Below are positions 1,518 to 59,268 of a DNA stretch of 64,000 nt, in pieces (positions within the stretch are counted from its first letter, which is position 1; every line of letters begins with the position of its first letter). This DNA comes from Heterodontus francisci (lineage: Eukaryota), in the NCBI RefSeq assembly GCF_036365525.1, contig NC_090380.1:72777757-72841756 (forward strand), in the 5' to 3' direction. The notes below the pieces were generated by a model that saw nothing but the letters and a program-made list of their open reading frames with translations, did no database searches and had not been told where the DNA came from. The position numbers and the translations under genes are program-made.

Positions 1518-1856
1518 AGACAGTCACTGTTTCTACTGATCAGCATACTGGTGCGGAGATTGGCAAACATGTCATCCTCAAGTGTACTTTTGATCAGATT
1601 GACAATAACCCGACAGTGATGTGGGAGAAGGTAGGTGTGAAACAAACCGTGCACCAATACAAGGGAAACGTTGATGACTTCAGTGAACAGCACGGCAACT
1701 ACACCAAGAGAACTGAAATTGATGGAAGCACAATCAAAAAAGGAGATGCATCTCTTACACTGAAGAATGTTAATATCTGGGATGAAGGAATTTACAAGTG
1801 CAGTGTCAGTAATGATCATGGATTCGGAGAAGCATTCATGAATCTGTCTGTTTGGG
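1518..1856 (+). CDS. B7/butyrophilin-family (VTCN1/B7-H4-like) gene, IgV exon
   Basis: Acceptor ttattcag at 1517 and donor GTATGT at 1857, phase 1-1. Translation TVTVSTDQHTGAEIGKHVILKCTFDQ...VMWEK...VHQYKGNVDDFSEQHGNYTKRTEI...GDASLTLKNVNIWDEGIYKCSV shows B-strand C, C-strand W, DxGxYxC and the B7-type 'SEQ..Y..RT...GDASL.L.NV' motif. Confidence 0.9.
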
Positions 1857-3396
1857 GTATGTCAGCTGTTCTGTTCTTTCCCTGCAATCAGGAGCAAGTG
1901 TAACTTGGTGTTTCATTTATTTAATTATTACATACATTTCCAATGCCACCAGAGAAAAGAACAGTTTTAATTTTTTTAATTAAATCTGAACAGTTACAGA
2001 AAGACAGTAATAATGGCGTCTCACATGGAACATCAAATTATACAACAATGAAAATATACACCATTAATTTTTACAGGGTTCTCCTGATTTCCTGTGGTAG
2101 GATCAGTGATTATGCTATATTTTTCAGGGTGTCCACTGAAACTGCAGTGGCAGATCAGGCGACCACTGCTGAAATCCAAATCATATTCTTTAGATGATGC
2201 AGTTGTCAAACCTTACCCCATTGCAAAGGTAGGGATTAGAAAAACATCACGTTTCTGTAACACTGATGAATCTGTATTCCTGATGCCATTTCCAGCATTG
2301 CCTCTGTAGCGAAGCAGTGTGAATGCAGGCCCATAATTTGCATAAAAAAGCAGGGGCTTGGTAGCTGATGTCATAGATCATCTTAGTCAGGCAGTAGACC
2401 AAAAATCAAAGACATTAAAGAAACAAGGAATATTTGAATAGCTAAGGAAGCCACAGAGGAAAGTGAGAAAATAGGAGAGAGTGACAAGACAGAAAGCCAG
2501 TAAATCAGGTTAGAAAAGAAAACAAAAGTACAGTCAAAATATCATGAGGGTTGATTTATAACTTCTGCTGTTATATTCTTTTTAAATAGCATGACCCCCA
2601 AAAATTCCTAGGCCTTCAGCAATCCCTTTAAGGATATTTGCTTAGGTCATTTACTGCCTGGTACGAATGGGCTAAGAGTGCATGAGATGCACGTCACCCA
2701 CCTGTTCCTAACAATTATAACCAGATTCTTACAAACAGTGTTTGGGGCTGATTTGCATATTGTAAGGAGCCTCCTGTTTTAGGTGGCCATTCTGTTTTCC
2801 TGTTTGCAAGAAAATTGAATCAGTTGGGCCTTGGGTGTTCAATAGGAGGCTGAGGTCCCAAAACCCACACTCCAGGTTTTCAGTTCCGGCGAGAAATAAG
2901 CGGGTGGAAGTTGTAAGTCAGCCCCAGTCAACTTGCCGAGCTACATTTTATCAAGCCAGAGACTATATCAAAGCTGGGAGTATAGCTCAGATCTTCTGGT
3001 TCTGTCATTCTAAACTGGCACCAGTCAGCTAGTATAATTGGTGAAGATCATCCCATTTCTGTGCCTAACTGTATTGGATCACCAGAGCACAGCATGGAGA
3101 GGAAGCTGGAGTGGTGAGGATGATATATCTGTCAAAGCGCTTGCCCAGTTTTTGGTCCATTTAAATTAATAGAAGGAAAATCAGCATAGCTTTTTCACAA
3201 GTGTGCCATTCTCCCCACTGGATTTTATTTTCTACACTGTACAGGCAAATTTAATACCTCAGGCTCTGGAAAATCTGCCAGTGGTGTTCATTGTATCAAC
3301 ATAAAATGAAAAAGTCACAACGAAACAAGAAAACATGTTTATTAAAACAAAAGACAAAAATGGCAATGTTTATGAAGAACTTGGTTCATCTGCACC

Positions 3397-5800
3397 TTCT
3401 TTGGCCTCCTTGTTTCGAGAGACAATGGGTAAGCGCCTAGAGGTGGTCAGTGGTTTGTGAAGCAGCGCCTGGAGTGGCTATAAAGGCCAATTCTAAAGTG
3501 ACAGACTCTTCCACAGGCACTGCAGATAAAATTGGTTGACAGGGCTGTTACACAGTTGGCTCTCTTCTTGCGCTTCTGTCTTTTTTCCTGCCAACTGCTA
3601 AGTCTCTTCCACTCGCCACTCTTTAGCCCCGCCTTTATGGCTGTCCGCCAGCTCTGGCGATCACTGGCAGCCAACTCCCACAACTTGTGATCAATGTCAC
3701 AGGACCTCATGTCGCGTTTGCAGAAGTCTTTAAAGCGGAGACGTGGACGGCCGATGGGTCTGATACCAGTGACGAGCTCGCTGTACTATGTGTCCTTGGG
3801 GATCCTGCCATCTTCCATGCGGCTCACATGGCCAAGCCATCTCAAGCGCCGCTGGCTCAGTAGGGTGTATATGCTGGGGATGTTGGCCGCCTCGAGGACC
3901 TTTGCGTTGGAGATACGGTCCTGCCACCTGATGCCAAGGATTCTCCGGAGGCAGCGAAGATGGAATGAATTGAGACATCGCTCTTGGCTGACATACATTA
4001 TCCAGGCCTCGCTGCCGTAGAGCAAGGTACTGAGGACACAAGCTTGAAACACTCGGACTTTTGTGTTCCGTGTCAGTGTGCCATTTTCCCACATTCTCTT
4101 GGCCAGTCTGGACATAGCAGCAGACGCCTTTCCCATGCGCTTGTTGATTTCTGCATCGAGAGACAGGTTACTGATGATAGTTGAGCCTAGGTAGGTGAAC
4201 TCTTGAACCACTTCCAGAGCGTGGTCGCCGATATTGATGGATGGAGCATTTCTGACGTCCTGTCCCCTGCTGTTAGTTTTCTTGAGGCTGATGGTTAGTC
4301 CAAATTCATTGCAGGCAGCCACAATCCTGTCGTTGAGTCTCTACAGACACTCCTCAGTGTGGGATGTTAATGCAGCATCGTCAGCAAAGAGGAGTTCCCT
4401 GATGAGGACCTTCCGTACTTTGATCTTTGCTCTAAGACGGGCAAGGTCGAACAACCTGCCATCTGAGCTTGTGTGGAGGAAAGTTCCTTCTTCTGAAGAC
4501 TTGAACGCATGTGAGAGCAGCAGGGAGAAGAAGATCCCAAACAGTGTAGGTGCGAGAACACAGCCCTGTTTCACACCACTCAGGATAGGAAAGGGGTCTG
4601 ATGAGGTGCCGCTATGCTGAATTGTTCCTTTCATATTGTCATGGAATGAGGTGATGATACTTAGTAGCTTTGGTGGACATCCAATCTTGTTAGTAGTCTG
4701 AAGAGACCACGTCTGCTGACGAGGTCAAAGACTTTGGTGAGATCTATGAAAGCAACGTAGAGGGGCATCTGTTGTTTGCGACATTTCTCCTGTAGCTGAC
4801 GAAGGGAGAACAGCATGTCAATGGTGGATCTCTCTGCTCGAAAGCCACACTGTGCCTCAGGGTAGACACGCTCAGCCAGTTTCTGGAGCCTGTTTAAAAT
4901 GATTCGAGCAAAGACATTCCAAGCTATGCTGAGCAGGGAGATTCCATGGTAGTTGTTGCAGTCACCGCGGTCACACTTGTTCTTATAGAGGGTGATGATA
5001 TTGGCATCGCGCATGTCCTGTGGTACTGCTCCCTCATCCCAGCACAGGCAAAGCAGTTCATGGAGTGCTGAGAGTATAGCAGGCTTGGCACTCTTGGTTA
5101 TTTCAGGGGTAATGCTGTCCTTTCCAAGGGCTTTTCCACTGGCTAGAGAATCAGTGGCATCACTGAGTTCCTATTTTGTTGGCTGTTCGTCCAGCTCATC
5201 CATGACTGGCAGAGACTGGGCTGCATTTAGGGTGGTCCCAGTGACAATATTTTCCCTGGAGTACAGTTCTAGGTAGTGCTCCATCCAGCGGTCCATTTGC
5301 TTGCGTTAAGTCAGTGATTGGGTTCCCTGATTTAGACTTGAAGGGGAGCGATCTTCTTGATGGTTGGCCCAAAACCTCTCTAAATGCCATCATACATTCC
5401 TCTGATGTTTCCGGTGTCAGAGGCCAGCTGAATACAACTGCATAGGTGTTGCCAGTAGTCATTTGCACAGCGCCTGGCTGCTCTTTGTGCAGTGCTTCTG
5501 GCTACTTTAATTGCTACGGATGTTAACTCGCTGGGGGCTTGTAGTTCAACAGTGCAATGCGCTTAGCGGCTATGACAGGTTCCAGCTCTTCAAAGTGAGA
5601 TTGAAACCAGTCTGCATTCTGCTTCACACGTTTGCCATAGGTGGTCATTGCTGAGTCATAGATGGCATCTCTGATGTGGGCCCACTTGGTCTCTGCATCC
5701 CTTGTAGGAGTGTTTTGAAGGGCTTTTTCAAGTGAATTTAGAAACTTATGTAACAGGTGTGGATAAGAAATTCTCTTCGTGTTGATGCGCGGGCGGCCCT
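3397..5800 (-). mobile_element. RTE-clade (BovB-like) LINE, 5'-truncated, frameshifted
   Basis: RT motifs (PEAQCGFR, GVKQGCVLAPTLF, LLFADD, FGLTISLKKT, FTYLGS) and a C-terminal zinc knuckle. Candidate TSD tctgcacc at 3389-3396 and 5801-5808. Confidence 0.9.
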
Positions 5801-6912: not shown

Positions 6913-7312
6913 GAAAGACTTGCATTTATATAGTGCCTTTCACAACCTCAGGATGTCCCTCAGCACTTTATAGCCAATGAAGTATTTTTGAAGTGTAGCC
7001 AGTTATAGGAAATGGCAGCCAATTGCACACAGCAATGTTAAAATCAGATCATCTGTTTTTTATATTGATTGCTAAATATTGGCCAGGACCCCAGAGATAA
7101 CTCTACCTTTGTTCAAAAAAATGCCAGGGGATCTTTTGGATCCATCCTAGAGAGCAGACCATCTCACCCAACAGATAGCATCTCTGATAGTGCAGCACTC
7201 TTCATTACTGCATTGGAGTGTCTGGCTAGAATTTTGTGCTCAAGTCTCTGGATTAGGACTAGAACCTACAATCTTTTGCCTTGAAGGCAAAAGTACTACC
7301 AACTGAGCCACA
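6913..7312 (-). mobile_element. Deu-SINE-like (SacSINE1-type) SINE
   Basis: Tail 'gacttgcatttatatagtgcctttcac...gccaatgaagtattttt' and head 'gtggctcagttggtag'. Homologous to 27830-28265 and 61540-61718. Confidence 0.65.
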
Positions 7313-7397
7313 GTCCATTACTCTTTTCACTTTTTATAAATGACCTAGACTCGGCTGTAGGGAGCAGCATAATAAAGTTTACAAAAGATTTATTTAT

Positions 7398-8862: not shown

Positions 8863-9144
8863 CAAAAAGTACTGTTGGTATCCGTATCTTATGGAAGTCT
8901 AATGGAAGTGACGTGCTGTCTTGCCAGTCTTCAGGGTGGTACCCAGCCCCAGATGTTACCTGGAGTGACACATTTGGTAACAATCTGTATAAAGATTGTG
9001 AAACAAAAATGATCAGAGACAGCAGTGGACTCTTCCATGTGTCGCATGACCTGAAACAAATGCATAACTCTCAAAGTCAGTATGTCTGCTCCATACAGCA
9101 TGAGTGGATGGCGGAGCCTGAGCGTACTCGAGTCGCATTCACAG
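8863..9144 (+). CDS. B7/butyrophilin-family gene, IgC exon
   Basis: Acceptor tttctttcttag at 8862 and donor GTGAGT at 9145, phase 1-1. Translation AKSTVGIRILWKSNGSDVLSCQSSGWYPAPDVTW...RDSSGLFHVSHDL...YVCSIQH carries the B7/BTN 'LxCxSxGWYPxPxVxW...GLF' signature. Confidence 0.9.
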
Positions 9145-11388: not shown

Positions 11389-11394
11389 CCACAT

Positions 11395-13654: not shown

Positions 13655-13855
13655 CACCATCCTGACTTGGAACTATATCGCCGTTCCTTCACTGTCGCTG
13701 GGTCAAACTCCTGGAATTCCATTCCTAACAACACCTACGCCCCAAGTATTGCAGAGATTCAAGAAAGCAGCTCACCACCACCTTCTCAAGGGCAATTAGG
13801 GATGGGCAATATCGCTGGCTTAGCCAGAGATGTCCACATCCCATGAATTAAAAAA
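13655..13855 (+). mobile_element. 3' tail of a CR1-like LINE family
   Basis: Tail 'caccaccttctcaagggcaattagggatgggcaat...cacatcccatgaa', shared with 16390-16640, 29150-29790, 41240-42570 and 57315-58520. Confidence 0.7.
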
Positions 13856-14927
13856 GAATTCTGGCGCCAACAACTTCCTAAAATTGGGTATGACTAACCA
13901 TTGTTAATTTATACAAAGTGGCAGCTTGTCTTTTTTTCTTCACTTTCTCCCCCTTATCTTTTGTTTGTCTCTATTGCCCATTAAAGAGATTAATTTACAG
14001 GCACTCTGCAAAGTCTCTGCAGACCCCTGGGGGTCTCTGGACCCCAGTTTGCAAACCATTGCACGAGCACAATAATTCTCAAATTTATTTCGTAGAAGGA
14101 CCCCTTTTTAAATAGATTAGTAATCACCAACCCAATCTAAATTAAAATACTAATTATGAATTCAAATCTACTGTTATAGGAGTTCTGAGATATTTAATGA
14201 AAGAATATTTAAAACATTTAATTCCCATTTTAAGTGGAACAGATAATTGATACACTGACAAGTTGGACTGAAATCTGAAATATTAAAGTAATGACTAAGT
14301 TAAGTAAATCCAGCACAGAATAACAAGAAGTGCGAGAATGAAAACAGAGCGATGGGGTTTGGGAGGATTTCATCAATAAACCTTTTGTGGACAGAGTTTA
14401 AAAACAGCACTGGGATATCAGCTCCCACAACTCATTGTCCAGTTCTAGAGAGAGGTGGCAGTGGTTAAGGAGACTGATGTGTGAACCGGCGGCTTGAACC
14501 TGCGTGTGTGCCCAGGAACATGTGGCTTCTCCAGGGAGGGAGGGGGGATTATTGTTGATTTTTGTCCTTTTGCTGCAAATGGAAGTGGCAAAAAGCAGCG
14601 CTAGAACTTTCTGTCTGAATATTGTGGCCGCTGTTCACAGCATCTGCCGGTTGCAATCACGGGCTCCACCCCATTCATGGCTCCAGACACCGATCATTAC
14701 TCCAGTTGCACATTTTGACTGCATTCCAAAAATGTCAAGAGATTTAAAAGTCCCACCATGAGATCATTAGCAAGGCTCAGAAATCGCATCCCTCATGATG
14801 GATTCATAAGAGTCGGCATGTCTACACACAACATTTTCAGAGCTTACTTTTGTGGAGCCAGAAATTACATGAGTGCTCCTCCTGGCTCCCCAAAGATATT
14901 GTGGCCACTGCTGGCCCATACTTGACC
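13823..14927 (+). repeat. Local duplication, copy 1 (~1.1 kb)
   Basis: Aligns with 16605-17709 at an offset of ~2.78 kb. The ORF-track peptides at 14504 and 17285 are nearly identical. Confidence 0.9.
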
Positions 14928-15228
14928 CCCAATCACATTTGGAAGAAGTGTGCATTTCAAAACTATGTTCCAGTTAAAACAGCAGCTAAGGAAGAAGGGA
15001 CACTTCTGTTATTTCTTTGAATTGAGGACAAATATATATACACATAAAATAGGCATCAGGCACTCTCTTGCATTTACAGTAATTGTAATCAGTTTAAGGT
15101 AGTTTGAACGGCCATCTTTGATCTTGTGGGACTGTAATGTGATGGGACTTGCTTTACACATCTGCACCTCATAACACAGCACTAACAGAAGAAATACTGA
15201 TATGTCTTTTTACTTGCTTTATTTTCAG

Positions 15229-15281
15229 ATGGGGCGACCATGATTCGTATGGATGATGGAAAAGGTAGTCCAGATTTATAA
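15229..15281 (+). CDS. Candidate terminal coding exon of the B7-like gene
   Basis: Strong polypyrimidine acceptor (ctttttacttgctttattttcag). The phase-1 frame gives DGATMIRMDDGKGSPDL*; the phase-0 frame gives MGRP*. Confidence 0.35.
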
Positions 15282-15808: not shown

Positions 15809-16604
15809 TATTGATGCTAGAGTCCTGCCTGATGCCATGTTTAGGCATGCCTTTAAATAGATGAACATCCTACCTGTCTAAATAAGCATGAGGCTGCTTA
15901 AATGTGCAATTTGGGGTCTACAGCTGTTGCAAGACCGTGATGCAAATTCAGGTCCAAATTGTCAGGGCTTGCACCGTTCAGTCTCCTCCTAGGTCTTGAG
16001 TTGCCTACCCAGCAGGTTTTAAAGGCCACATACAGTCGTGCCAACTCCACCATCTCAAAATCAGGATACAAACTCCCAAAAATCAAGAGATTTGGTACAA
16101 AAATCATGAGTTGCTCTTTTATGCAAAATTGAACCAATATAGATTAACAGTTAGTTTATAAACATCATTAGAGTCTTATTTAATCTCTTAACAGGTCAAA
16201 GATCTTTACAAAAACTGTATTACCAGTTTGGAAAATGATTTACAAAAAACCTTTTGAAAGTCCTACCTGTTATCAGTTGTGCATTCTGTCTCATAAAACA
16301 GGGTCATGTTTATCAGCCTAGTATCTCTGGTTTGTGCAGTTGGTGAATGAGATAGGTTTTTGGGGGATATTCTATTTTGATTGACAGTCCCAGATGCATG
16401 GGAACACCACCACCAGTAAGTTCCCCTCCAAGCCACACACCATCCTGACTTGGAATATATCGCTGTTCCTTCACTGTGAGTGGGTCAAAATCCTGGAACT
16501 CCCTTCCTAACAGCATCCACACTTCAAGCGCCGCTAAGGTTCAAGAAGCAGCTCACCAGCATCTTCTCAAGGGCAATTAGGGATGTGCAATAAACACAGG
16601 CCTA

Positions 16605-17709
16605 GCCAGAGATGTCCACATCCCATGAATTTAAAAAAAATTCTGGCGCCAACAACTTCCTAAAATTGGGTATGACTAACCATTGTTAATTTATACAAAG
16701 TGGCAGCTTGTCTTTTTTTCTTTAATTTCTCCCCCTTGTTTTTTGTTTGTCTCTATTGCCCATTAAAGAAATAATTTACAGGCACTCTGCAAAGTCTCTG
16801 CAGACCCCAGGGGGTCTCTGGACCCCAGTTTGCAAACCATTGCACTAGCACAATAATTCTCAAATTTCTTTCGTAGAAGGACCCCTTTTCAAATAGATTA
16901 GTAATCACCAACCCGATCTAAATTAGAATACTAATTATGAATTCAAATCTACTGCTATAGGAGTTCTGAAATATTTAGTGGAAGAATATTTAAAACCTTT
17001 AATTCCCATTTTAAGCGGAAGAGATAATTGATACACTGACAAGTTGGACTGTGATCCGAAATATTAAAGTAATGCCTAAGTTAAGTAAATCCAGCACAGA
17101 ATAACAAGAAGTGTGAGAATGAAAACAGAGCCATGGGGTTTGGGAGGATTTCATCAATAAACCTTTTGTGGACAGAGTTTAAAAACAGCACTGGGATATC
17201 GGCTCCCACAACTCATTGTCCAGTTCTAGAGAGAGGTGGCAGTGGTTAAGGAGACTGATGTGTGAACCGGCGGCTTGAACCTGCGTGTGTGCCCAGGAAC
17301 ATGTGGCTTCTCCAGGGAGGGAGGGGGGATTATTGTTGATTTTTGTCCTTTTGCTGCAAATGGAAGTAGCAAAAAGCAGCGCTAGAACTTTTTGTCTGAA
17401 TATTGTGGCCGCTGTTCACAGCATCTGCTGGTTGCAATCACGGGCTCCACCCCACTCATGGTTCCAGACACCGATCATTACTCCAGTTACACGTTTTGGC
17501 TGTATTCCAAAAAAGTCGAGAGATTTAAAAGTCCCACCATGAGATCATTAGCAAGGCTCTGAAATCGCATCCCTCCTGATGGATTCACAAAAGTGGGCAT
17601 GTCTACACACAACATTTTCAGAGCTATACTTTTGTGGAGCTAGAAATTACATGTGTGCTCCTCCTGGCTCCCCAAAAATATTGTGGCCACTGCTGGCCCA
17701 TACTTGACC
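16605..17709 (+). repeat. Local duplication, copy 2
   Basis: High identity to 13823-14927. Confidence 0.9.
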
Positions 17710-19439
17710 GCCATGATTCTCCTCTGTCCCCATCCCAGACCCATATGTCTTGTTCCAGAAAGGGAGTCAGACAGAATTCTTCAGGTCCTGCACCTCTTCC
17801 ATTGAAGTATGGCCTAAGGAATTTGGCTCGGGTGGCATGGACTGGTGCACGGAACAACTGCTTTGCCAATTTGCAGCCCATTCTGGATGTATGTCAAATT
17901 TCTCCCACACAGTTACATTTTTGCAGATTCACGTTAAAGGGGAGATTTTAATGTTTCCCACCTGGCAGAAAAGAAGGTGAGCAGGTAGTTAAAATCACCC
18001 ATACAACTTCCTTCCTGAGGTCCTGCTTTCTTGCTGCACGTTCTGATTTTAACCCGCTTTTATCAGAAGTTGTCGGGGACACTCAGGTCTCCTTTAAGTG
18101 TACAGATCAGCTGAAAACAGGGTTTCTGTCACACTTTCATCAAATGTACGGTGGTAGAATGGGAGCAGCACCAAAGAAATACCAGGCCGTGTATGAAGTT
18201 CAGTGTGCATAATACAGTGTACATGACAGAAAGTTACTCTTGTAGAAAAGATTATGAATGACTGAAATTTGCTTTTGGTGGGTGATATTTGTATTTACTT
18301 ATAATGTTAAAGCTTTCTGTTGGAGCTATGTTGATATAATTGTGATTGGTTGCACTGCTATTGTTTTGTGGGGTGGCCCGTGATCCCATACAGCACATCT
18401 GATGTATATGGTGGGTATTGTTAGTGTCCTGCCCTTTATTAGCAGAGATCAAGAACCTAATATTGGAAACTGTTTCCAGCTCCAACTTTTGAGAATACAA
18501 CACCACTCCCTCTTCATAACTGGGTGCTGAGGTTTCTGTAGAAAGGTGTAAAGGTCACTTCATTGTATGTTCACTGGTCTTTTGGGATCAATCAAAGGCA
18601 GAGTCTGTGTACTGTGTCATGGACATCCCTGTGTGATTGCTTTGTTCCTTGACATGGGCAAACCCTAACTAAAACATAATAGTATCATCTAGCTGAAAGA
18701 AGTTTTCTTTTCTCTACTCATATATACTTTTTATTAAGAGTAAGCAGAATTCTAGCGGTAAATATATGTATGACAATAGCAATACATCAGTATTGGCTTG
18801 GAAAATGTGCACGATAGGTTTTGCCGTAGATGCCATAAATTACTGCTGGAGCAGTTTTGTTGCCAGAAGATTATATGGAGCATACTGATCTCCCCGCCAT
18901 ATGCTCTGTTCACTTCAATACCTTACACTGGCGTTGTGAATTGTGCTAGGCTTAATGTCATTTGTTGATGTGATATTGTAATTCTACCTTTGTCTGATTG
19001 CAAGCAACCTTTTTAACTTGTTTTAAATAAAAACCTTTAAACAAAATCTTTTGCATACCTTATTTGTTTTCTTGACCCTCCCCAATTGTGGTATTTTCGC
19101 ACCTCTCTAGTTTTTTGGACACATTCTATTCCCTATACTTCCATGTATGATACACCTGGTAAACCAGCTTCAGGCACAATTGAGATTAGAATTTCATTGT
19201 TTTGGAAATCAGAAGTTAATTGCGTTGGATGTTGCAGACACCAGCTTTTGTCTCGACACTTCAATGGAAAGATGGTTAGAATGGCAATTGATATTTCCTG
19301 CAATCTGTAAATGCTGAGATAGAATTTTCAAAGATGGCCTACATTTTATTATTTGTAATTGTGTGTAGGTGCTTCAATAATTGGATTTTCCTATTTAGAA
19401 TACTTAGCTCTATCAAACTTTCTCTCAAACTTTCATTGC

Positions 19440-21191: not shown

Positions 21192-21755
21192 TGTGAGAAA
21201 CGTAGCCCACTTAATAATAATTTACACCAAGTCAAACTCTGAAGAAGTAAGTTTATTTAACGTTCTTGCAAGATCGGGTGTCCTACAAGCAGGCACACCG
21301 ATCAACATATTCAGTTCATGTTTATACAATACAAATCCATTTATCCACGCCTTTAGTTTACATTATTGGTTATAACATATTATGACACTAACCTATCCTA
21401 TAGTTGCTACAGTCTCCTCCTCTGTTTACTTCTCCCCCTACTCTAACTTTCTAGCCCCTAACTCTTGTTGTTGTTTTACCTTATTTGGCTCTCCATTGTG
21501 TGTTTTAACTTGCAGCTGTCAGCCTTTATCTTAGTGGGGCAGTTTCTTATTCACTACATCCTTTGTTCTAACTCTTGCTGTTTCTCTTTTCTCTGCCTAA
21601 GCACAATTTTTAACTGCTGTACTGTCTCAAGGTCTTTACTTACATCCCCTTATCAGTTCTCTTTTTCAGTGATTTCATTATGTTGTGTAGAAATGACTTC
21701 TCGGTAATTTTCCACAAGCTGTAGAAACAACATTTCAATATTTCTTATTCTCACA
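21192..21755 (-). repeat. ERV 3' LTR
   Basis: Direct repeat of 25736-26299; I noticed only 3 substitutions. Confidence 0.95.
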
Positions 21756-21771
21756 ATTCCCCCTTTTCTTT
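21756..21771 (-). promoter_or_regulatory. ERV polypurine tract
   Basis: Reverse complement AAAGAAAAGGGGGAAT immediately precedes the 3' LTR TG. Confidence 0.9.
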
Positions 21772-21839
21772 TACTTAATCCTTGTTGTTTTCTACATACT
21801 GAGGAGGGGTCTCATATGTCCTCTCAAATACTCTGAGCA

Positions 21840-23082
21840 TTATTTCAGCCGCCTTCTCAATGTCTGTACTCCCGTTGATACTATCCATTCTGTCATTTGG
21901 TTTCGGGCCTTGAATTCATCAGGTACCCTTCTTGGCACCCCTATGGAATCCAAGCACACCTGGTCGTCAAAAGAGTTCGCTATCGCTTCCCTTTTACCCC
22001 TTTCCCTCGTTATTATCTTTTGTTTCTCAAATGCCAAGGTGAATGGTGTTGCCAATTGAACAATTGCGCACGTCCCCTTCCACTGGGAGGGGAGGGTCTG
22101 TCTCAGGATTTTTCCTTCGCAATACCACCATAAATCCGCTCTGGGGACATTCAATGATGAGTAGTTCCCTCCCCTGACTCTTCCAGTTACGTCCTCAGTC
22201 TCTATGCATGACTTCAACTCTCCCATATTTCTGGTTAGCTCCGCACCGTGTCGACTTACGCATGATGTGTGATTCACACTGGTTGCTAAAAATGAAGGGG
22301 GAGTCCTTGAATCTTTTTTCTCTAGGGGAGGGAACATTAATGACAAGGATATGCAAGTTTGAATACCCCAAGCCGTCTTATCCTGATATAGGGCTAACAT
22401 GCATTCCATGCCCTTTCGGTCACGCTCCCACCCCAGCGGGAAAGGTACTACTTGAGCTATCGGTCTACCAGATGCACAAGCATAGCAATTGTTTTTGTTC
22501 AAACTTTTTACAGTATATTTTACCCATTCTACCCAGGCATTTGTGTCCCCGTAACCGGTTTCTATCTCAATTGTCTTTCTCAGGTCCTTTACCTCTATTA
22601 TTTTTACTATGTTAGGATCGTTATGAGAGGTCCCTTTTAGTTTGTTAGATGGTTTACCAGTCTTATCTATTGTTACCTGAAAACAACATTTTAATTCACC
22701 TTTCTTTTTCCCTTCTCTAACTGTTACTCTAAACACCTTGTTGTCTAATTGGAAGTGGGTATTTTTGATTTGTTGTTCTTCTGTTATCTGGACAATCTGG
22801 GCCTGGTTTTATGGGGCTCTGGTGAATGGATATAATCGGTGGGAGTGGGTCTCCTGTTAGTAGTCCATCCCCATAATAATGGAGGGACTCCACATAATAA
22901 TGTCTTTGGTTATGTATGCCCCCACATGGGATTAGGAAACATAAGTCTACTTCTACCACCTGAGGGTCCTGGCTCTTGGGGATTTCAATTCGTGTACCGT
23001 TGTCCCCGTCAGTTCCGTCCCACATTGTTATTTTTCCCATTACTGGGATGACTAATACTGCATACAAAAACATCCAACCCAT
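21840..23082 (-). pseudogene. env: ERV env remnant (signal peptide, SU with CxxC, furin site; TM subunit deleted)
   Basis: MGWMFLYAVLVIPVMG signal, CYAC, ADLWWYC...LPSQWKGTCA, RGKR and DSIGVPRRVPDEFKARNQ, then an abrupt end. Split over two frames at ~22730. Confidence 0.85.
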
Positions 23083-23227
23083 TTTATTTCCTGGCTACTT
23101 TTGAAAAGAAAGAGAGAAAGAGAGAAGGCACACAATATTACAGACAGTATTTCCGCGCTCGCGCCGCTATATAAAAAAAAGTTTGTTACTCAAAGTCTTT
23201 TTAGCTTTAGCTTCAATGGTTCTTCTG

Positions 23228-23701
23228 TTAATTCGGTTGTCCAAGTTCCTTCCTCGGCCGGGGGGGTTGTACCGGCCCCTTGATTCTTGTGTAGTGGGTC
23301 CAACCTCTTTCTGCCGTTCTTATGGCTGTTTCAGTGGTTAGGAGAGTCTGGTATGGTCCTTCCCAGTTCGGTTGTAGTTTAGTCTCTTTCCACGATTTCA
23401 CCAGAACCCAATCTCCTGGTTGGATCTTGTGTACTGCAAATCCGAGAGGTGGGGTCTGTGCTAACAGGCCTTGCTTCCTGAGGAATGACAATGAGGAAGA
23501 CAACGCCAGTATATAGTTCTTTAGAAACGAATCTTTAGTTTCTAAGGTTGGCATCTCGCCCCTGGTTCCCATATAGGGTAATCCAAATAGCATTTCATAG
23601 GGGGACAGTCCCACATCTTTTCTAGGGGCTGTCCGAATTCTGAGTATCGCTATAGGTAAACATTTGGTCCAGGATAACCTTGTTTCAAGTACCAGTGCCA
23701 T
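23228..23701 (-). pseudogene. pol: ERV integrase C-terminal remnant
   Basis: WTKCLPIAILRIRTAP...GLSPYEMLFG...HKIQPGDWVLVK...LQPNWEGPYQTLLTTETA...WTHYTRIK matches a gamma-type IN C-terminus with the GPY motif. Confidence 0.9.
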
Positions 23702-24410
23702 GCCTTTCTGCTCACTTCCACATTCCCCCTTTTATCATTCTATGATAACCTTCTCTCTACTGATATTCACGAGGATTATGTGGATCTATTTACTCAAATA
23801 ACATTTAAACAGTATAATATAAAAGCAAATATAAAAAACTCAGCAACTGCTGAATCAGAAGGGTAGGCTGAGCCACCCTCTAACAAGGGGGCGTGTATTA
23901 GCCTGGTCGGTATGTTTTTCATTCTAACTTTCCCCTGGGATTGTCATGTCTGGGTGATAAGAAGAGTGCTGTTGAAGTACAATGTCTCTCTCTCTCTCTC
24001 TTGCTGTACCAGCTGCAAGGCCAAGTTGCCTCTGCAGCCCTGAAGTTATGAAGTCAGCTAGCTTGTTAGCAATACATGACTAATTAATTGTTTCATCTTA
24101 AATGTTCCCATGTAATTCTGTACTTAAAAATTCTAAAATCTAAATTCTGTTCTCACAGTCCCCCTTTTGATTCTTCAAAACATTTTTAAAAAATCAATCC
24201 TTTGATCCCACCTAGGTGCCTTTAATGGTCTCTATTTGTCTAGAAACAGCCTTCAACACCCAGAGGGGTCGCACTCAATACGCCGCCTGCTTGTGCCATA
24301 AGAGGGGCCTGCGGTAACTCTGTAAAGGCATAAGTTTTGCAGGGGCTTCAACTACTTGTTTACAACATAAAAGGGTGGAACACTTGTACAATTACCATCT
24401 CATTTAAGAT

Positions 24411-25205
24411 TCACTGTTTTTCTCTGGCTTCATCTCTATTAACGAAAACTTTCTGCGCTTCTCTGAGCAGTTCGTCCAATTGTTTTTCACTCCATCCATC
24501 TATCTTTTGAATTTTCTTTTGGATGTCTGGCCATGATTTTGTTACAAAATGGACTCGAAGGAGTCCTTGGGCAACTGGGTCTTCTGGATCTAAACCTGAA
24601 TATTTCCTCATTGTGTCCCGTAATCTCTGTAAGAAATTTGAGGGAGTCTCATCCTTTTCCTGTCTTACTTCGAAGGCCTTATTCAAATTTTGTGATTTCG
24701 GGACAGATTCCCGAATGCCTTTTACTATCAGATTTCTAAGGTCTTTCATCTGGCCCCTATGGCCGACGTTATTGTTCTGCCACTGCGGGTCTTGATTAGG
24801 GTATTTTTGATCGGCTGGTTCGTTTCCCCCTACCCCGGGAGGGTTTTCTCTTTCCCAAATTTTCAGGGGTCTTCTACGAGGACTTTCATTTCCTTTTTAA
24901 ACACTCTTACCTCTCCTGACGTTAATGGTGCACTAACAAATCCAATTTTATTATTTCCTATTGGTACCTCTCTCAAGGGCATCATTGTCTTAGGAGACTC
25001 TCTGTCTCTATCGTCGTCGTTATCGTCGGGTTTAGGGGTGGTCCTTCTTGCTGTCCTTAGATCATATTTGGGTCTTTTTCTCCTTGGTTTTTGACTCTAA
25101 ATCCCAATACTCCAACATCCGTCCCAATGGACTTTCTGGAGGGATGTTGCCGGCAGACTTTCCTTGTCTCCCATCGTCTTCCTTTTTAGACGATTTATTT
25201 CCCAT
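24411..25205 (-). pseudogene. gag: ERV gag remnant
   Basis: ATG at 25205 gives MGNKSSK (myristoylation Gly2)...IPPESPLGRMLEYW. Capsid MHR VRQEKDETPSNFLQRLRDTMRKY and FVTKSWPDIQKKIQK. Contains internal deletions and frameshifts. Confidence 0.85.
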
Positions 25206-25211
25206 GGTAAA

Positions 25212-25412
25212 CTGAAGGGTCTTGTACCCTACGGTATTCACCTCCTAGCTGAAGGGTCTTATACCTTACGGTATTCACCTCCTAGCTGAAGGGTCTTATA
25301 CCCGACAGTATTCACCTCCTAGCTGAAGGGTCTTATACCTTACGGTATTCACCTCCTAGCTGAAGGGTCTTATACCATACAGTACTCACCTCCTAGCTGA
25401 AGGGTCTTATAC
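25212..25412. repeat. 37-bp tandem repeat array in the ERV 5' leader (5 full units + 1 partial)
   Basis: Unit ctgaagggtcttataccttacggtattcacctcctag starts at 25212, 25249, 25286, 25323, 25360 and 25397. Confidence 0.95.
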
Positions 25413-25715
25413 TGCAGGACTGTAAAATTCACTCCTCAAGGACTTTTAGTACTTAGAAGGTCTTATCCTACAGTTAACCATAAGTCACCAAGATAATACT
25501 TAAAAGTCATTTTTCTTACCTTGGTCCGTGCACGGAGTTGCCTGACTTCACGTGTGTACCTGCCACAATAAATACTCGTTCAGAGTGACTTCCCTAGGAT
25601 CGTTTTCAGTCGATTACTCGGGTCCGCTACCAACGAGAGAAACGAGACCGTTTTAAAATTAACGGGACGCGTCTTCTCGTCTGTCGTCGGCCGCGGTCCC
25701 GGCAATGATGAAGAG

Positions 25716-25733
25716 ATCCCGGACGAGCCCCCA
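25716..25733 (-). promoter_or_regulatory. Primer binding site, tRNA-Pro
   Basis: Reverse complement TGGGGGCTCGTCCGGGAT is the canonical 18-nt Pro PBS, 2 nt from the 5' LTR. Confidence 0.95.
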
Positions 25734-25735
25734 AT

Positions 25736-26299
25736 TGTGAGAAACGTAGCCCACTTAATAATAATTTACACCAAGTCAAACTCTGAGGAAGTAAGTTTAT
25801 TTAACGTTCTTGCAAGATCGGGTGTCCTACAAGCAGGCACACCGATCAACATATTCAGTTCATGTTTATACAATACAAATCCATTTTTCCACGCCTTTAG
25901 TTTACATTATTGGTTATAACATATTATGACACTAACCTATCCTATAGTTGCTACAGTCTCCTCCTCTGTTTACTTCTCCCCCTACTCTAACTTTCTAGCC
26001 CCTAACTCTTGTTGTTGTTTTACCTTATTTGGCTCTCCATTGTGTGTTTTAACTTGCAGCTGTCAGCCTTTATCTTAGTGGGGCAGTTTCTTATTCACTA
26101 CATCCTTTGTTCTAACTCTTGCTGTTTCTCTTTTCTCTGCCTAAGCACAATTTTTAACTGCTGTACTGTCTCAAGGTCTTTACTTACATCCCCTTATCAG
26201 TTCTCTTTTTCAGTGATTTCATTATGTTGTGTAGAAATGACTTCTCGGTAATTTTCCACAAGCTGTAGAAACAACATTTCAGTATTTCTTATTCTCACA
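25736..26299 (-). repeat. ERV 5' LTR
   Basis: Direct repeat of 21192-21755, adjacent to the PBS. Confidence 0.95.
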
Positions 26300-35460: not shown

Positions 35461-35509
35461 ATGGGTGCATTTAGAAACATTGTTCTCAAACTCTGGCTCC
35501 TTGTCTTAG
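35461..35509 (+). CDS. VJ-C1-TM-ITIM receptor, leader exon
   Basis: MGAFRNIVLKLWLLVL(G) with donor G|GTAAGC, phase 1, followed by a 95-bp intron to the V exon. Confidence 0.85.
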
Positions 35510-35604: not shown

Positions 35605-35946
35605 GGCCTGCTGTCGGTCTGGAAGTGATCCAGTCTCCTTCAGTTCTGTCCCTCCTGAGAGGACAGACAGCTCGGATCAACTGCATCCTGATACCCGGAG
35701 AGGAGCGAATGGATTCGGTGAAATATTATTGGTGTAGGGCAAGAGACAATCCTGGCATCGGATGCAACGAAACCAGGAAATTCCTCAATCAAAGCTCTCG
35801 CGTGTCTGTATCGATGCCTCGGGGTTCACTTGTCATTCGGGAGGTGATTGTGGACGATTCCGACACTTACCACTGCCTGGTCCTTAGAGAGAAGCCTCGG
35901 CCCTGGAAAAGCTTCACAGGAGAAGGAACAAAACTGAACATCGAAG
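35605..35946 (+). CDS. VJ-C1-TM-ITIM receptor, germline-joined VJ-type IgV exon
   Basis: Acceptor tcccag and donor G|GTAATT. GPAVGLEVIQSPSVLSLLRGQTARINC...YYWC...SLVIREVIVDDSDTYHCLVLREKPRPWKSFTGEGTKLNIE has a J-like GxGTxL G strand. Confidence 0.92.
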
Positions 35947-36550: not shown

Positions 36551-36552
36551 AC

Positions 36553-37868: not shown

Positions 37869-38168
37869 CGGAACCTGAAGTATCTCTCTCTGCGGATCCC
37901 GAGAATGAAGTTGTTGCCATTCAGACTCTGACTTGTTTGGCTGCGGGATTTTTCCCAAGAGATCTGAACATGTCTTGGTTTGTAACGGGAGATGTCTCCT
38001 ATCAAACAGAACCGGGTTCCCTGATAGAAAACAGTGACAGCACTTACAACCTGAGCTCCCGGCTGCGGATTACAGACATTCACTGGGACCAGGGAACCAC
38101 CGTCACCTGTCAGGTTCAACACGTTACAGTCGTCAGGTCAGCAAGGAAAAGTTTCAGTCACAGCGGAG
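37869..38168 (+). CDS. VJ-C1-TM-ITIM receptor, C1-set Ig exon
   Basis: Acceptor taatttag and donor G|GTAAGT. AEPEVSL...TLTCLAAGFFPRDLNMSW...NSDSTYNLSSRLRI...W.QGTTVTCQVQH is a classic C1-set signature. Confidence 0.93.
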
Positions 38169-39621: not shown

Positions 39622-39824
39622 AACAACTTCATTCTCGGGATCCGCAGAGGGAGGAAGAGACTTCAGGTTCCGCTAAGTTAATTAAAATATATTATATCAA
39701 TCTGAGTTGTAGCAAATATATAGCGCTACTATATTAAAGATTTAAACTTGTGCAAGTTTGATACTAAATGGAACTGCACAATCAATTTGATCAAAGTATA
39801 TATCAATATACAAATCACAAGACA
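39622..39824 (-). repeat. Inverted duplicate of 37707-37915 (intron end, acceptor and start of the C1 exon)
   Basis: Reverse complement matches 'tgtcttgtgatttgtatattg...ttagcggaacctgaag...gcggatcccgagaatgaagttgtt'. It is preceded by a direct copy (~39569-39609) of ~37591-37630. Confidence 0.9.
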
Positions 39825-44817: not shown

Positions 44818-44922
44818 GCTTTTCCAAGTACTCTTACTTCAGCCTGCTGAGTCTTATCCTTATTGTACCATTTTGTCTTTGGATCATCAAGAGTCATTGC
44901 TGTAAACTGAAGATTGAGAAAG
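44818..44922 (+). CDS. VJ-C1-TM-ITIM receptor, transmembrane exon
   Basis: Acceptor tttctgaag and donor G|GTAATC, phase 1-1. GFSKYSYFSLLSLILIVPFCLWIIKSHCCKLKIEK has a ~20-aa uncharged hydrophobic span followed by a basic/Cys stop-transfer segment. Confidence 0.8.
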
Positions 44923-55010: not shown

Positions 55011-57314
55011 TTGCGACCATAGATTCTTTTTATTGTTGCGGCTCACTACATACATCACAATACTATATGTTGCCTTAAAACATTTCTAATGTTCATGATA
55101 TTCTTATAGATTCATCGATCCATGGCAAAAATGTTGATGATCAAATAATGGGAAAATTGAAGAATGAATCAGTAAATGAAGTGAGTATATTGTTTTGATC
55201 TTTTTCCTACTCTGCATGAACTGGCGCTGTGTAGAACTGAATGCATTATAAAATATTGTCAGCTCATTTAAATAAATTGTCAACACTCATTGAAATGATG
55301 CACTGGAACCACAAAGGCGACAGACTATCCAGTGTCATTGGACTATTTTTTAACCACCTGGGTGTTAAGGGAGTGCAGCGAGGAAAGTTGGGTGTGGAGG
55401 ATCGCATCACTGCTCATTTTCCCTTTCAGCATTAGCTGCGAATGTCTGATAGAGGCTGAAGATTGGAATGTGTCCTGGAATGTAGCTGATTGAGATAAAA
55501 GTCTCTGCTCCAGGTGTGCTATACCCACACACTTGATACAGGTCAATGCAGAAACTCTTACCTTAGCAAGGTGGATTTCTTTTCCCCATCTGGCCAGCAG
55601 ACCTGGATCTATACATGGGAGGGTGCCTTTAAATCATTGTGACCTCCTCCCAAACAGCTAGGCTTTGTGCCCTTCTTTCCCAAAAAGAACAGCCCTTTTT
55701 AGCTGCACTTCTTCCAGAAGAGTTCTATAAAGGCTGAGTCAAAAAAAGTTGGTTGTCTTTTCACTTGGCCTAGGCCTGCTTCCAAATAAAGCTATCTTTA
55801 ACTTGATTTCAATAAGTTTCTGCTGCCAAATGTAACCTATTCCTAGTGCTGCAGTGTTCCTTTAAATAGCATTGGCAGCAAATTCTACTGAACTATTGCT
55901 CTGCTGAGTATATCACTGCTACAATTAGCACAGGGTTCCATGAATAATTATGTGAATAAGCAGACTTTGAAATGTCACAGAAGGTCTCTTCTGTGTTCTT
56001 TTATTGTGAGTTGAGCTCACAGTATCCAATCTAGGCTGTAATTAGCTAAGACAGGAAAATATACCCTTAAGTTACAAGCCTTCCAGGATGTCCAAGCACT
56101 ACTGATATTAACAAATAGGTCAGACTGGGACTATTAATACACTTCTTCATAAATTTTCCAAACAGATATTTTGGGACCAATGCTGAAGTAAGACTGAAGC
56201 CGACTGGTCTTTTATTCAGTGTTTTGGTAATCTGGGGAAATACCAAGGTGGAGGTGCGGTGACGGTGGTGGTTGGGGAGGGTGTCTATCTCTCCAGGACT
56301 GTCATTTATTTAGTTCTAACTCTTTTTGCCCTTCGTTAGAAAATGTTAGCATCATAAAAATTACAAACCACCAGCAACTGAGGAATATTCTCTGAAATAA
56401 TAATAAACATCTATGAAAGCAATGGTACCAGGAGTTTGCATTGGATCTCAGACTTGTCAACTAATTATTCCAGGATGTAAAACAATGAATTGCGGACCTC
56501 AAAAAAATCTTTGTCGTTTTAGTTGGTACCTGACCTGCTTCAGATGAATGACAATACTGCTGTTGGATACTCATGTGCTACAATGGTACAGCTGGTTTAA
56601 GTAATTCACATTTAATGAACTATTTTACTTTACATGTCTGCTGGAAGTTAACCATTAATGAACCCCTCTTTGAAGTTCTGTAATTTTTTTAATTAGTTGT
56701 CGTTCTACTACTCCTGAATGCATTTACTTGCACCGGAGTATGTCTCCACAGTCACAGTCGCTGTCTCATAACTCGTCCAGATGGCTTTTCTTTAGGTGTT
56801 AATCTAGGCCATGAACATTAAAACATTGTTTGACCAATGGGGCCATCATGGCCAAATCCAATCATGCAAGTGTGTGCACAGACACAATCATGCACATACT
56901 TTTCAGCAGGAGTCATTGGGAAACATTCAGGAGTAAAAACATTTTTCTGTCTCTAGAAGAGTAACACTCAGGCCAACTGAACTGCCTCAGCTGATGCCAG
57001 ATAGAGATCAGGGAATCAAAACTGCAATTTTCAGGTCTGTATGGATTAATAAACACAGGGTGATGCTTTACCCAGTAGACCATCACTGAATGTGTTGTAG
57101 GAGAGAGTGATTTGAGGTGGCTCTGTCTCTGGCACATATTGGATGGGTGGTACTCCACCTACCCAATAATATCGGCTGGAGGCCTGATCAATTTTAATGA
57201 TCAGGTTTCACTTAAATACAATAGGTGAACTGTCAACACTAATCATAGTGCTTAAAGGGGGCATGCTGCTTGGGAGAGTCAGATGTCCAGTGGGCTGGCC
57301 ACCATTTTTTAAAT

Positions 57315-58520
57315 TCTTTCACAGGATGTGGACATCGCTGGCTAGGACAGCATTTATTGCCCATCTTTAATTGCCCTTGAGAAGGTGGTGGTGAGTTATC
57401 TTCTTGATCCGTTGCAGTCCAAGTGGTGTAAGTACATCCACAGTGCTGCTAGGAAGGGTTTTAGGATTTTGACCCAGCGACAATGAAGGAACGGCAATAT
57501 AGCTCCAAGTCAGAATGGTGAAGGGGAAGTTGCAGGTAGTGGTGTTCCCATGCATCTGCTGCCTTTGTCCTTCTAGGTGGTAGAGGTTGTGGGTTTGGGA
57601 AGGTGCTGTCGAGGGAGCCTTGGTGAGTTGCTGTATTGCATCTTGTAGATGGTTAACACTGCAGCCACTGTGCATCAGTGGTGAAGGGAATCAGTGTTGA
57701 AGGTTGTGGATTGGGTGCCAATCAAGCTGGCTGCTTTGTCCTGGATGCTGTCAAGCTTCTTGAGCATTGTTGGAGCTGCGCCAATACAGGCAAATGGAGA
57801 GTATTCCATCACACTCCTGACTTGTGCCTTGTAGATGGTGGACAGGCTTTGGAGAGTCAGGATGTTCGTTACTCGCTGCAGAATTCCTAACCTCTGACCT
57901 GCTCTTGTAGCCACGGTAGTCAATGGTAACCCTCAGGATATTGATAATGGGGGATTCAGTGATGCTAATGCCATTGAATGTCAAGGGAAGATAGTTGAAT
58001 TCTCTCTTTTCGGAGATGGTTATTGCCTGGCACTTATGTGGCGCAAATGTAACTTGCCACTTATCAGCCCAAGCCTGAAAGTTGTAAGATCTTGTTGCAT
58101 CTGGACATGGACTACTTCAGTATCTGAGGAGTTGTGAATGGTGCTGAATATTGTGCAATCATCAGTGAACATCCCCACTTCTGACCTTTTGGTAGAGGGA
58201 AGGTCAGTGATGAAACAGTTGAAGATGGTTGGGCCTAGGACACTACCCTGAGGAACTCCTGTGGTGATGTCCTGGGACTGAGATGATTGACTTCCATCAA
58301 CCACAGCTATCTTCCTTTGTGCTAAGTATGACTCCAACCAGCAGAGAGTTTTCTCTCGATTACCATTGACTCCAATTTTGCTAGAGCTCCTTGATGCCAC
58401 ACTCAGTCAAATGCTGCCTTGATGTCAAAGGCAGTCACTGTCACCTCACCTCTTGAGTTCAGCTCTTTTGTCCATGTTTGAACCAAGGCTGTAATGAGGT
58501 CAGGAGCTGAATGGCCCTGA
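57315..58520 (-). mobile_element. CR1-like LINE 3' part
   Basis: GVPQGSVLGPTIF...MFTDDCT, TIYKAQVRSVMEYS and the shared tail. Confidence 0.85.
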
Positions 58521-59025
58521 TTTTAAAGACATCCCACAGTCCTTAAAGGTGAAGTTCACTTTTCAAAGTTCATTACTGAGGCAGTAAGCAGCATGACATT
58601 AGTCAGGGTCCCTGATTCTCCAATTCAGCTGTGGAGGTGCTGATAAACAGGAAGGAAGTCTTCTTTAACAGCAAAGGTCAGCAGGTACCCTGGCAAATTA
58701 GCCAGCAACAGTGGAGAGGGAAGGCTGTGTACAACAATCAATGATTCTAGTGCAATAACAATCAGGTAGGGTCATTACACAGCCTGCAATTCACCCTGTC
58801 AGATGACTGCGCAGGCAGTGAAGTCAGAAATTTACAGTTTACTGCTTGCCATTGGATGTTTGCTATTGGAGTTGGATTATTGACATTTCCATGTGGCTTT
58901 GCATTGCACAACAGGAAAGTGGAATTTATGCTAAATTAAGGTCAAGACAAATATTGAAAAGTAGCGTGTTTATAATTATTTAAGCGTGTGTGTTCTTATT
59001 GTTCTTTCTTATTACTGTGCTACAG

Positions 59026-59268
59026 GGTAATGTTTCTTTCAGCAGTGAAACTCTGCATTATGCATCTGTTCATGTCAGCAATCCTGTAAAGAAGAAGCAA
59101 AAACAGGAATTGAAACGACCAGAGCGGGACCAAGCATCTGAATATGCTGTTCTAAAGGTCAAAGATAAAAATAATCCGTTCTGTGAAGAATCGGTACATT
59201 GCTCCGCTGTTAGCATTTGCCCCACATCAAATAGAAGGCAAACTGCTAACTACACTGCAACCACATGA
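59026..59268 (+). CDS. VJ-C1-TM-ITIM receptor, terminal cytoplasmic exon with ITIMs
   Basis: Acceptor gctacag. GNVSFSSETLHYASVH...RDQASEYAVLK...* contains ITIMs LHYASV (59053-59070) and SEYAVL (59137-59154), with AATAAA at 59282. It starts in phase 0, so an intervening exon is needed after the phase-1 TM exon. Confidence 0.8.
   Translation, partial: GNVSFSSETLHYASVHVSNPVKKKQKQELKRPERDQASEYAVLKVKDKNNPFCEESVHCSAVSICPTSNRRQTANYTATT

What the first reader, a model, noticed from the sequence alone, without database searches (positions are those of the whole stretch)
1518..59268. B7-family ligand gene directly upstream of a CD28/NKp30-like ITIM receptor: possible linked checkpoint pair
Seen: the only two host genes recognisable in 64 kb are a B7-type V-C gene and the VJ-C1-ITIM receptor. 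They are co-oriented and separated almost entirely by transposon-derived DNA. Established: B7 proteins are ligands for VJ-type receptors (CD80/86-CD28/CTLA4, B7-H6-NKp30, HHLA2-CD28H), and in mammals these partners are generally unlinked. Inference: this could be a physically linked, co-evolving ligand-inhibitory receptor module, or a relic of an ancestral B7/VJ cluster.
Basis: inference. Interest (0 to 1): 0.72.

Follow-up and report, generated by a model that had tools for sequence, protein, structure and literature searches.

The report
Anchorless B7-H4 beside shark paired receptors
In this shark the immune-checkpoint gene B7-H4 has no membrane anchor and is likely secreted, and it sits between two near-identical antibody-like receptor genes, one predicted to inhibit and one predicted to activate immune cells; nothing tested here shows that B7-H4 binds them, so the neighbourhood is more likely inherited gene order than a dedicated ligand-receptor pair.

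Summary
Both genes are real, intact, co-oriented and adjacent. Database proteins identify the genome as horn shark. The B7 gene is the VTCN1/B7-H4 orthologue by best hit and neighbours. It has no transmembrane exon: RNA contigs join the C exon to a short hydrophilic last exon, and 11 of 11 shark orthologues lack an anchor. The receptor is not CD28- or NKp30-like. It is a SIRP-like VJ-C1 protein with ITIM/ITSM-type tyrosines. It has a twin 168 kb upstream with a 98% identical ectodomain, a transmembrane arginine and almost no tail. A sawfish has the same two types (204/205 identical), while identity across species is 66%, which points to an old inhibitory/activating pair kept alike by gene conversion. 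A third VJ exon lies 45 kb upstream of the B7 V exon, so the 'pair' is part of a small cluster. Linkage holds in 7 of 7 other sharks at chromosome level. I found no V-V co-evolution signal. Ligand-receptor pairing stays a testable minority reading (about 0.17), of interest because B7-H4 has no accepted receptor.

The parts
1518..1856 (+). VTCN1/B7-H4-type gene, IgV exon (leader exon about 4.7 kb upstream of the window)
   Evidence: Pfam V-set; best PDB hit VTCN1, E 2.7e-15; matches P0021, named VTCN1 by NCBI
8863..9144 (+). VTCN1-type gene, B7/butyrophilin-type IgC exon
   Evidence: Pfam C2-set_3; V-to-C splice joint in 4 of 4 runs
15229..15281 (+). VTCN1-type gene, last coding exon: short hydrophilic tail and stop, no transmembrane segment
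   Evidence: Loose ends behind the C exon match the start of this exon in runs X1 and X2; highest 19-residue hydropathy at most 1.17 in 11 of 11 orthologues, against 2.27 or more in receptor TMs
21192..26299 (-). Short endogenous retroviral element between the genes; LTRs 21192-21755 and 25736-26299, 561 of 564 bases identical (recent)
   Evidence: (Gag_p30, MLVIN_C)
35461..35509 (+). Receptor leader exon (own ATG, so a separate gene from the B7 gene)
35605..35946 (+). Receptor VJ exon (joined V-J, G-x-G in the G strand, no PPP/EIP motif)
37869..38168 (+). Receptor C1-set exon
   Evidence: Pfam C1-set E 4e-17
44818..44922 (+). Receptor transmembrane exon, no charged residue in the hydrophobic core; skipped in database isoforms P0006 and P0007
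55110..55180 (+). Receptor cytoplasmic exon 1
59026..59268 (+). Receptor last exon with two tyrosine motifs (LHYASV, SEYAVL); the third and fourth motifs of other sharks are lost here (Tyr to Cys; Tyr codon replaced by the stop)

Best explanation
The window holds the shark orthologue of B7-H4 (VTCN1), which lacks a membrane anchor and is likely secreted, next to the predicted inhibitory member of a SIRP-like VJ-C1 receptor pair whose predicted activating twin lies 168 kb upstream; the adjacency is most likely inherited gene order, not a dedicated ligand-receptor module. How the pair would work (inferred): the receptor's ITIM/ITSM-type tyrosines would recruit SHP-1/SHP-2 and damp leukocyte activation when its VJ domain meets a self ligand, not yet known. 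The twin, with almost the same ectodomain, an arginine in its membrane segment and a 3-residue tail, would signal through an ITAM adaptor of the FcR-gamma/CD3-zeta type. Gene conversion would keep the two binding domains alike, so that a microbe that engages the inhibitory receptor also triggers the activating one, as described for CEACAM and Siglec pairs. Shown: gene structures, the missing anchor, the two tail types, exon-limited DNA identity, and within-species clustering of ectodomains. Inferred: secretion, signalling direction, adaptor, gene conversion as the cause, pathogen pressure.
For: Orthology: best PDB hit VTCN1; NCBI name VTCN1; upstream SNF2-type helicase and RING/B-box/coiled-coil TRIM exons and a downstream GH47 mannosidase at C10:73.20-73.27 Mb, matching the human TTF2-TRIM45-VTCN1 block (PMC11565109, abstract; MAN1A2 as next gene is recalled). 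No anchor. Pair: P0036 vs P0037 ectodomains 203/208 identical; sawfish P0201 vs P0200 204/205; same type or other type across these two species 66-67%. The arginine-type TM exon is homologous between shark and sawfish (16/29) and not to the inhibitory TM (6/15 local). DNA identity between the two horn shark copies is 48/49 (leader), 94/95 (first intron), 340/342 (V) and 292/300 (C1), but only 73-81% in patches of the V-C1 intron, and no TM or tail exon is shared. The tree groups the two horn shark copies (100/99), and a stingray arginine-type ectodomain with a stingray inhibitory one (96/90). Cluster context: third VJ exon 44 kb upstream of the window and a relic of a second arginine-type TM exon. 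No V-V co-evolution: partial r 0.27 against 0.36 for the C-C control, 8 species.
Against: The B7 gene and the receptor stay on the same chromosome-scale contig in 7 of 7 other sharks, with consecutive accessions in bamboo shark, which selection for linkage could also explain. A second B7 gene on this chromosome also lies beside VJ-C1 genes, these with a CD28H-type loop, so B7/VJ-C1 neighbourhoods may carry function. Both tail types in one species were seen in only two species (horn shark, sawfish). The co-evolution test has little power (8 related species, non-independent pairs). Contigs drop rare variants, so a minor anchored B7 isoform is not excluded. Transcription of the receptor and twin was not tested with reads.
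Confidence: 0.6

Rival explanations
1. Linked ligand-receptor module: secreted B7-H4 binds the VJ domain shared by the inhibitory receptor and its twin and tunes leukocyte activation as a soluble checkpoint ligand; linkage keeps matching alleles together.
For: Adjacency conserved in sharks; B7 proteins bind V-type receptors (established); B7-H4's receptor is described as poorly understood (PMC13588502, search listing and start of abstract); a parallel B7/VJ-C1 neighbourhood lies 9.5 Mb away.
Against: No membrane anchor on the ligand; the receptor lacks CD28-family loop motifs; no V-specific co-evolution; three VJ-bearing loci surround the one B7 gene; shark chromosomes evolve slowly (recalled), so conserved order is expected anyway.
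Confidence: 0.17
2. The anchorless B7-H4 is not secreted but retrieved to the ER through its conserved C-terminal x-x-D-L, acts inside the cell as a tapasin/TAPBPR-like helper, and never meets the receptor.
For: 10 of 11 orthologues end in x-x-D-L; D at -2 gives partial ER retention and RTDL is an ER motif (PMC2140024, passages).
Against: The same paper reports that proline at -3 is not tolerated; horn shark and three more of the 11 orthologues have proline there; positions -4 and -3 are not conserved.
Confidence: 0.1
3. The upstream copy is a recent, lineage-specific duplicate that is a non-signalling decoy or a decaying gene, so there is no old activating/inhibitory pair.
For: 98% identity is also what a recent duplication gives; a relic TM exon and an inverted C1 fragment show local rearrangement; one stingray short-tail form has histidine in place of arginine (P0202).
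Against: A homologous arginine-type TM exon exists in sawfish, stingray and devil ray; open frames and splice sites are intact; the V-C1 intron is far more diverged than the exons.
Confidence: 0.13

Closest known systems
VTCN1 / B7-H4
   Same: IgV-IgC B7 ectodomain, best structural-database hit, SNF2-helicase/TRIM/mannosidase neighbourhood.
   Different: No transmembrane segment in any of 11 shark orthologues; mammalian B7-H4 is membrane-anchored with shed soluble forms (search listings; anchor recalled).
SIRP-alpha / SIRP-beta pair
   Same: VJ plus C1 ectodomain; four tyrosine motifs in most shark orthologues; short-tailed partner with a charged TM residue; NCBI and the ESM Atlas give SIRP-like names.
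   Different: One C1 domain, not two; arginine, not lysine (SIRP-beta detail recalled); does not group with SIRP rows in the trees; CD47 binding unknown.
PRARP and other non-rearranging VJ-C1 genes (Fu 2019; Ohta 2019)
   Same: Joined VJ exon, C1 domain, ITIM/ITSM-type tail, occurrence in pairs (recalled). Relatives with the same build were found in caecilian, frogs and sturgeon.
   Different: PRARP is cited as MHC-linked (PMC10751288, passage); this locus is the VTCN1 block. Both primary papers were unavailable, so the locus may already be listed there.
CD28 family (CD28, CTLA4, PD-1, CD28H) and NKp30
   Same: G-x-G in the G strand; ITIM plus ITSM-like tail as in PD-1; TM arginine in the twin as in NKp30 (recalled).
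   Different: Those have a single V domain (PMC11599192); this receptor has V plus C1 and no PPP or E-I-P loop.
CEACAM1/CEACAM3 and Siglec-5/Siglec-14 paired receptors
   Same: Near-identical binding domains with opposite tails, adjusted by gene conversion (PMC5112662, abstract).
   Different: Different Ig family; ligand and pathogen unknown here.

Membership tests
B7 family / VTCN1 | IgV plus B7-type IgC ectodomain, closest to VTCN1 | tested here: met
B7 family / VTCN1 | Position in the TTF2-TRIM45-VTCN1-MAN1A2 block | tested here: met
   SNF2, RING/B-box/CC and GH47 exons in that order; gene names inferred from domain families; TRIM45's filamin exon was not found among 150 of 219 candidates scored
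B7 family / VTCN1 | Type I membrane anchor | tested here: not met
B7 family / VTCN1 | Inhibits T cells through a counter-receptor | not testable with these tools
   needs cell assays
CD28 family | Single IgV-TM-cytoplasmic build | tested here: not met
   C1-set exon present; criterion from PMC11599192
CD28 family | PPP or E-I-P motif in the CDR3 loop | tested here: not met
   against motifs (PD-1 also lacks the prolines)
CD28 family | G-x-G in the G strand | tested here: met
   shared by many VJ genes
NKp30 | Single VJ domain with a charged TM and short tail (recalled) | tested here: not met
   receptor has C1, uncharged TM and long tail; only the twin has TM arginine, and it has C1 too
SIRP | VJ domain followed by C1 domains | tested here: met
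   one C1 here; two in some rays and sturgeons
SIRP | Four cytoplasmic tyrosine motifs in the inhibitory member | tested here: inconclusive
   four in 6 of 8 other shark orthologues listed, three matched in the other 2; two in horn shark
SIRP | Groups with SIRP in a tree | tested here: inconclusive
   separate clades, deep nodes unresolved, long branches
SIRP | Binds CD47 | not testable with these tools
   needs binding assay
PRARP / VJC1 | Orthology by sequence and synteny | not testable with these tools
   papers not held; no named PRARP sequence among the hits looked up
Paired receptors | Linked genes, near-identical ectodomains, opposite tail types | tested here: met
Paired receptors | Ectodomains homogenised within lineages | tested here: met
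   two species hold both types
Paired receptors | Opposite signalling | not testable with these tools
   needs reporter assays

The most novel reading that the evidence does not exclude
Early jawed vertebrates encoded B7 ligands next to their own VJ-C1 counter-receptors. In sharks a secreted B7-H4 is the ligand of the adjacent inhibitory/activating VJ-C1 pair, and the V-C-V B7 gene 9.5 Mb away is the ligand of the adjacent CD28H-type VJ-C1 genes. These would be surviving ancestral modules, and would point to a receptor lineage lost in mammals as the reason B7-H4 looks orphan.
Probability: 0.15. Interest if true: 0.8.

Novelty: new variant of a known kind. Interest (0 to 1): 0.47.

Why it matters
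B7-H4 is a cancer-immunotherapy target without an accepted receptor. A naturally anchorless orthologue and an adjacent VJ-C1 receptor give a concrete candidate pair to test. Apart from that, an inhibitory/activating VJ-C1 pair shared by sharks and rays would place paired-receptor logic with gene conversion before the shark-ray split, in a class of non-rearranging antigen-receptor relatives that bears on the origin of antibodies and TCRs.

Tried and rejected
Fold of the receptor: mean pLDDT 41, not used. Fold of the B7 protein: ordinary B7/butyrophilin V-C fold, tail without a membrane helix. One fused V-C-V-C1 gene: rejected, since the B7 gene has its own stop and the receptor its own leader. 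First TM-exon scan missed its own positive control; the relaxed scan found the control but also many chance hydrophobic frames, so the no-anchor claim rests on RNA joints and orthologues. No run is on record as RNA; the runs are treated as RNA because they hold splice joints, and depth was not used to rank expression. Codon-level C1 comparison was misaligned and is discarded; base counts are used. In one search P0202 was mislabelled inhibitory; it is a short-tail form, and the stingray rows labelled 'inh' are dropped. The third VJ exon has no long homologue, and no C1 or clear TM exon was found behind it. 'HHLA2' for the second B7 gene: architecture fits, but IFT57 is on another contig, so the name is not claimed. 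Pfam found no family in 53 of the 214 unique frames of 60 aa or more tested from the 200 kb downstream. Four look-ups of earlier findings returned nothing. Flajnik 2012, Ohta 2019, Fu 2019 and Dornburg 2022 were not held.
Full report
What is in the window. The window is G000:C10:72,777,757-72,841,756. Its two Ig genes match database proteins of Heterodontus francisci at 99-100%. The first has a V exon at 1518-1856, a C exon at 8863-9144 and a last exon at 15229-15281, with its leader about 4.7 kb upstream of the window. The second has six exons from 35461 to 59268. All introns are GT-AG and the exons reproduce P0021 and P0037. No further Ig exon was found between them. At least 57% of the 20 kb gap is locally repeated DNA or a short, recent retroviral element; this is a lower bound.

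The B7 gene is VTCN1/B7-H4 and has no anchor. Its V domain hits VTCN1 best in the PDB, its C domain is of the CD276/butyrophilin type, and NCBI names it VTCN1. Upstream lie exons of an SNF2-type helicase and a RING/B-box/coiled-coil TRIM; about 0.4 Mb downstream lies a GH47 mannosidase. Human TTF2, TRIM45 and VTCN1 lie within one 200 kb stretch (PMC11565109, abstract); MAN1A2 as the next gene is recalled. In contigs of four runs (three from one sample, one from another organism; RNA status is a guess of the tool) the V-to-C joint is present in 4 of 4, and in X1 and X2 the letters behind the C exon are the first letters of the exon at 15229. That exon encodes a hydrophilic tail and a stop. All 11 shark orthologues aligned have the same build, with a highest 19-residue hydropathy of 1.17 or less against 2.27 or more for the receptor TMs. 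The loose-end table was cut and contigs drop rare forms, so a minor anchored isoform is not excluded. Ten of 11 end in x-x-D-L. ER retrieval is possible, but 4 of 11, horn shark included, have proline at -3, which PMC2140024 (passages) reports as not tolerated; secretion is the likelier fate.

The receptor is SIRP-like, not CD28- or NKp30-like. It has a joined VJ domain, a C1-set domain, an uncharged TM and a long tail. The CD28 family is defined by a single V domain and, in most members, PPP or E-I-P loop motifs (PMC11599192; I read the first three of six parts and passages); these are not met. Six of 8 other shark orthologues carry four tyrosine motifs; horn shark keeps two, the third having Cys and the fourth a stop in place of Tyr. 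Proteins with VJ-C1-TM and three or four similar motifs occur in a caecilian, two frogs and sturgeon, and a chimaera model carries a similar TM and tail (P0153). Trees recover the elasmobranch family as a group (93/98) but do not resolve its deeper ties.

It has a twin. A 98% copy of the V exon lies 168 kb upstream on the opposite strand. It belongs to an intact gene, P0036: leader, VJ, C1 and a different TM exon with an arginine and a three-residue tail. The ectodomains are 203/208 identical. The sawfish Pristis has both types too, 204/205 identical, while shark against sawfish is 66-67% whichever types are compared. The arginine-type TM exon is homologous between shark, sawfish, stingray and devil ray (52-78%). 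So the two types predate the shark-ray split while their ectodomains track the species. At DNA level the horn shark copies agree over leader, first intron, V and C1 (48/49, 94/95, 340/342, 292/300) but only 73-81% in patches of the V-C1 intron. This is the pattern reported for gene conversion between paired receptors (PMC5112662, abstract). Only two species show both types in my data. That TM arginine couples to FcR-gamma/CD3-zeta and that ITIM/ITSM motifs recruit SHP-1/2 is established for other receptors and inferred here.

The neighbourhood. The order on C10 is helicase (+), twin (-), TRIM (+), a third divergent VJ exon (+, 44 kb upstream of the window), VTCN1 (+), receptor (+), mannosidase (+). 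Both genes share the same longest-contig length in 7 of 7 other sharks where both were recovered. Accessions are consecutive in one bamboo shark annotation (GCC27321/GCC27322), 5 apart in basking shark and 39 apart in white shark; in the four other species, and in the second bamboo shark annotation, they are hundreds or more apart, which neither shows nor excludes adjacency. No ray VTCN1 was among the 10 hits, so rays, chimaera and coelacanth are untested. A V-C-V B7 gene at C10:82.26 Mb lies 32 kb from a VJ-C1 gene, one of three with a PPP loop, two of them with the full E-I-P-P-P of CD28H. On C48 a V exon with CD276 as best hit lies 25 kb from a group of five VJ exons. In a rough count 3 of 20 B7-like places lay within 35 kb of one of 18 VJ places. 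I left out 19 of the 39 rows, mostly repeats of one large cluster, and both lists were seeded by these very queries, so this is a hint only. VTCN1 and HHLA2 cluster together among human B7 proteins (PMC13262535, passage).

Do they bind? Nothing here shows it. Pairwise identities of the two V domains over 8 sharks correlate no better than those of the C domains (partial r 0.27 against 0.36), a weak test. I put dedicated pairing at about 0.17.

Novelty. Ten literature searches listed no paper on an anchorless shark B7-H4 or on this receptor pair, judged from titles, term counts and the passages read. The four most relevant papers (Flajnik 2012, Ohta 2019, Fu 2019, Dornburg 2022) could not be read and no supplements were opened, so the locus may already be listed as a PRARP or VJC1 gene. 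Verdict: real genes, partly misread; a new variant of known kinds, with a testable but unsupported ligand-receptor idea.

Noticed in passing
G000:C10:82.25-82.53 Mb (L046-L073): A V-C-V B7 gene (HHLA2-type build, best PDB hit VTCN1) directly downstream of a co-oriented VJ-C1-TM gene, with two more VJ-C1 genes nearby; their CDR3 loops match the CD28H/CD28X motifs of PMC11599192. A stronger candidate for a linked ligand-receptor pair than the finding itself. IFT57 is on another contig.
   Followed up: partly
G000:C48:7.30-7.42 Mb (L081-L090): At least five VJ exons (best PDB hits TCR alpha for the one tested) and a V exon with CD276 as best hit, 25 kb from the nearest; 110 of about 140 kb fetched.
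   Followed up: partly
L016:5870-6226 (44 kb upstream of the window): A single intact VJ exon, 31% identical to the receptor V, with no C1 or clear TM exon found behind it and no long database homologue; orphan exon, short gene or relic.
   Followed up: partly
about 129 kb upstream of the window, minus strand (L008): A second arginine-type TM exon (68% identical) within an old tandem duplication of about 7 kb beside the twin; no V or C1 exon found for it.
   Followed up: partly
window 39622-39824, minus strand: Inverted copy (89%) of the intron end and start of the receptor's C1 exon inside the next intron.
   Followed up: no
window 44818-44922: Database isoforms skipping the TM exon exist in horn shark (P0006) and sevengill shark (P0007): a possible soluble receptor form.
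   Followed up: no
window 59026-59268: Horn shark has lost two of the four tail tyrosine motifs found in most other sharks.
   Followed up: partly
window 21192-26299: Short retroviral element with LTRs 99.5% identical, holding gag and integrase-end pieces; a recent insertion between the two genes.
   Followed up: partly
window 13655-14931 and 16438-17713: A 1.3 kb duplication (94%) flanking the last B7-H4 exon on both sides.
   Followed up: no
P0153 (chimaera model): A TM and three-tyrosine tail like the receptor's joined to an unrelated V domain that looks CD2/CD58-like by eye (weak Pfam V-set hit only); possibly two neighbouring genes fused by the annotation.
   Followed up: no
G000:C29 about 3-12 Mb, C1207 and C13:119.8-119.9 Mb: Large clusters of B7/butyrophilin-like V exons (21 of 39 hits on C29 and C1207).
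   Followed up: no
about 29-35 kb upstream of the window (L017-L018): A tandem repeat array of several kilobases between the third VJ exon and the B7-H4 leader.
   Followed up: no
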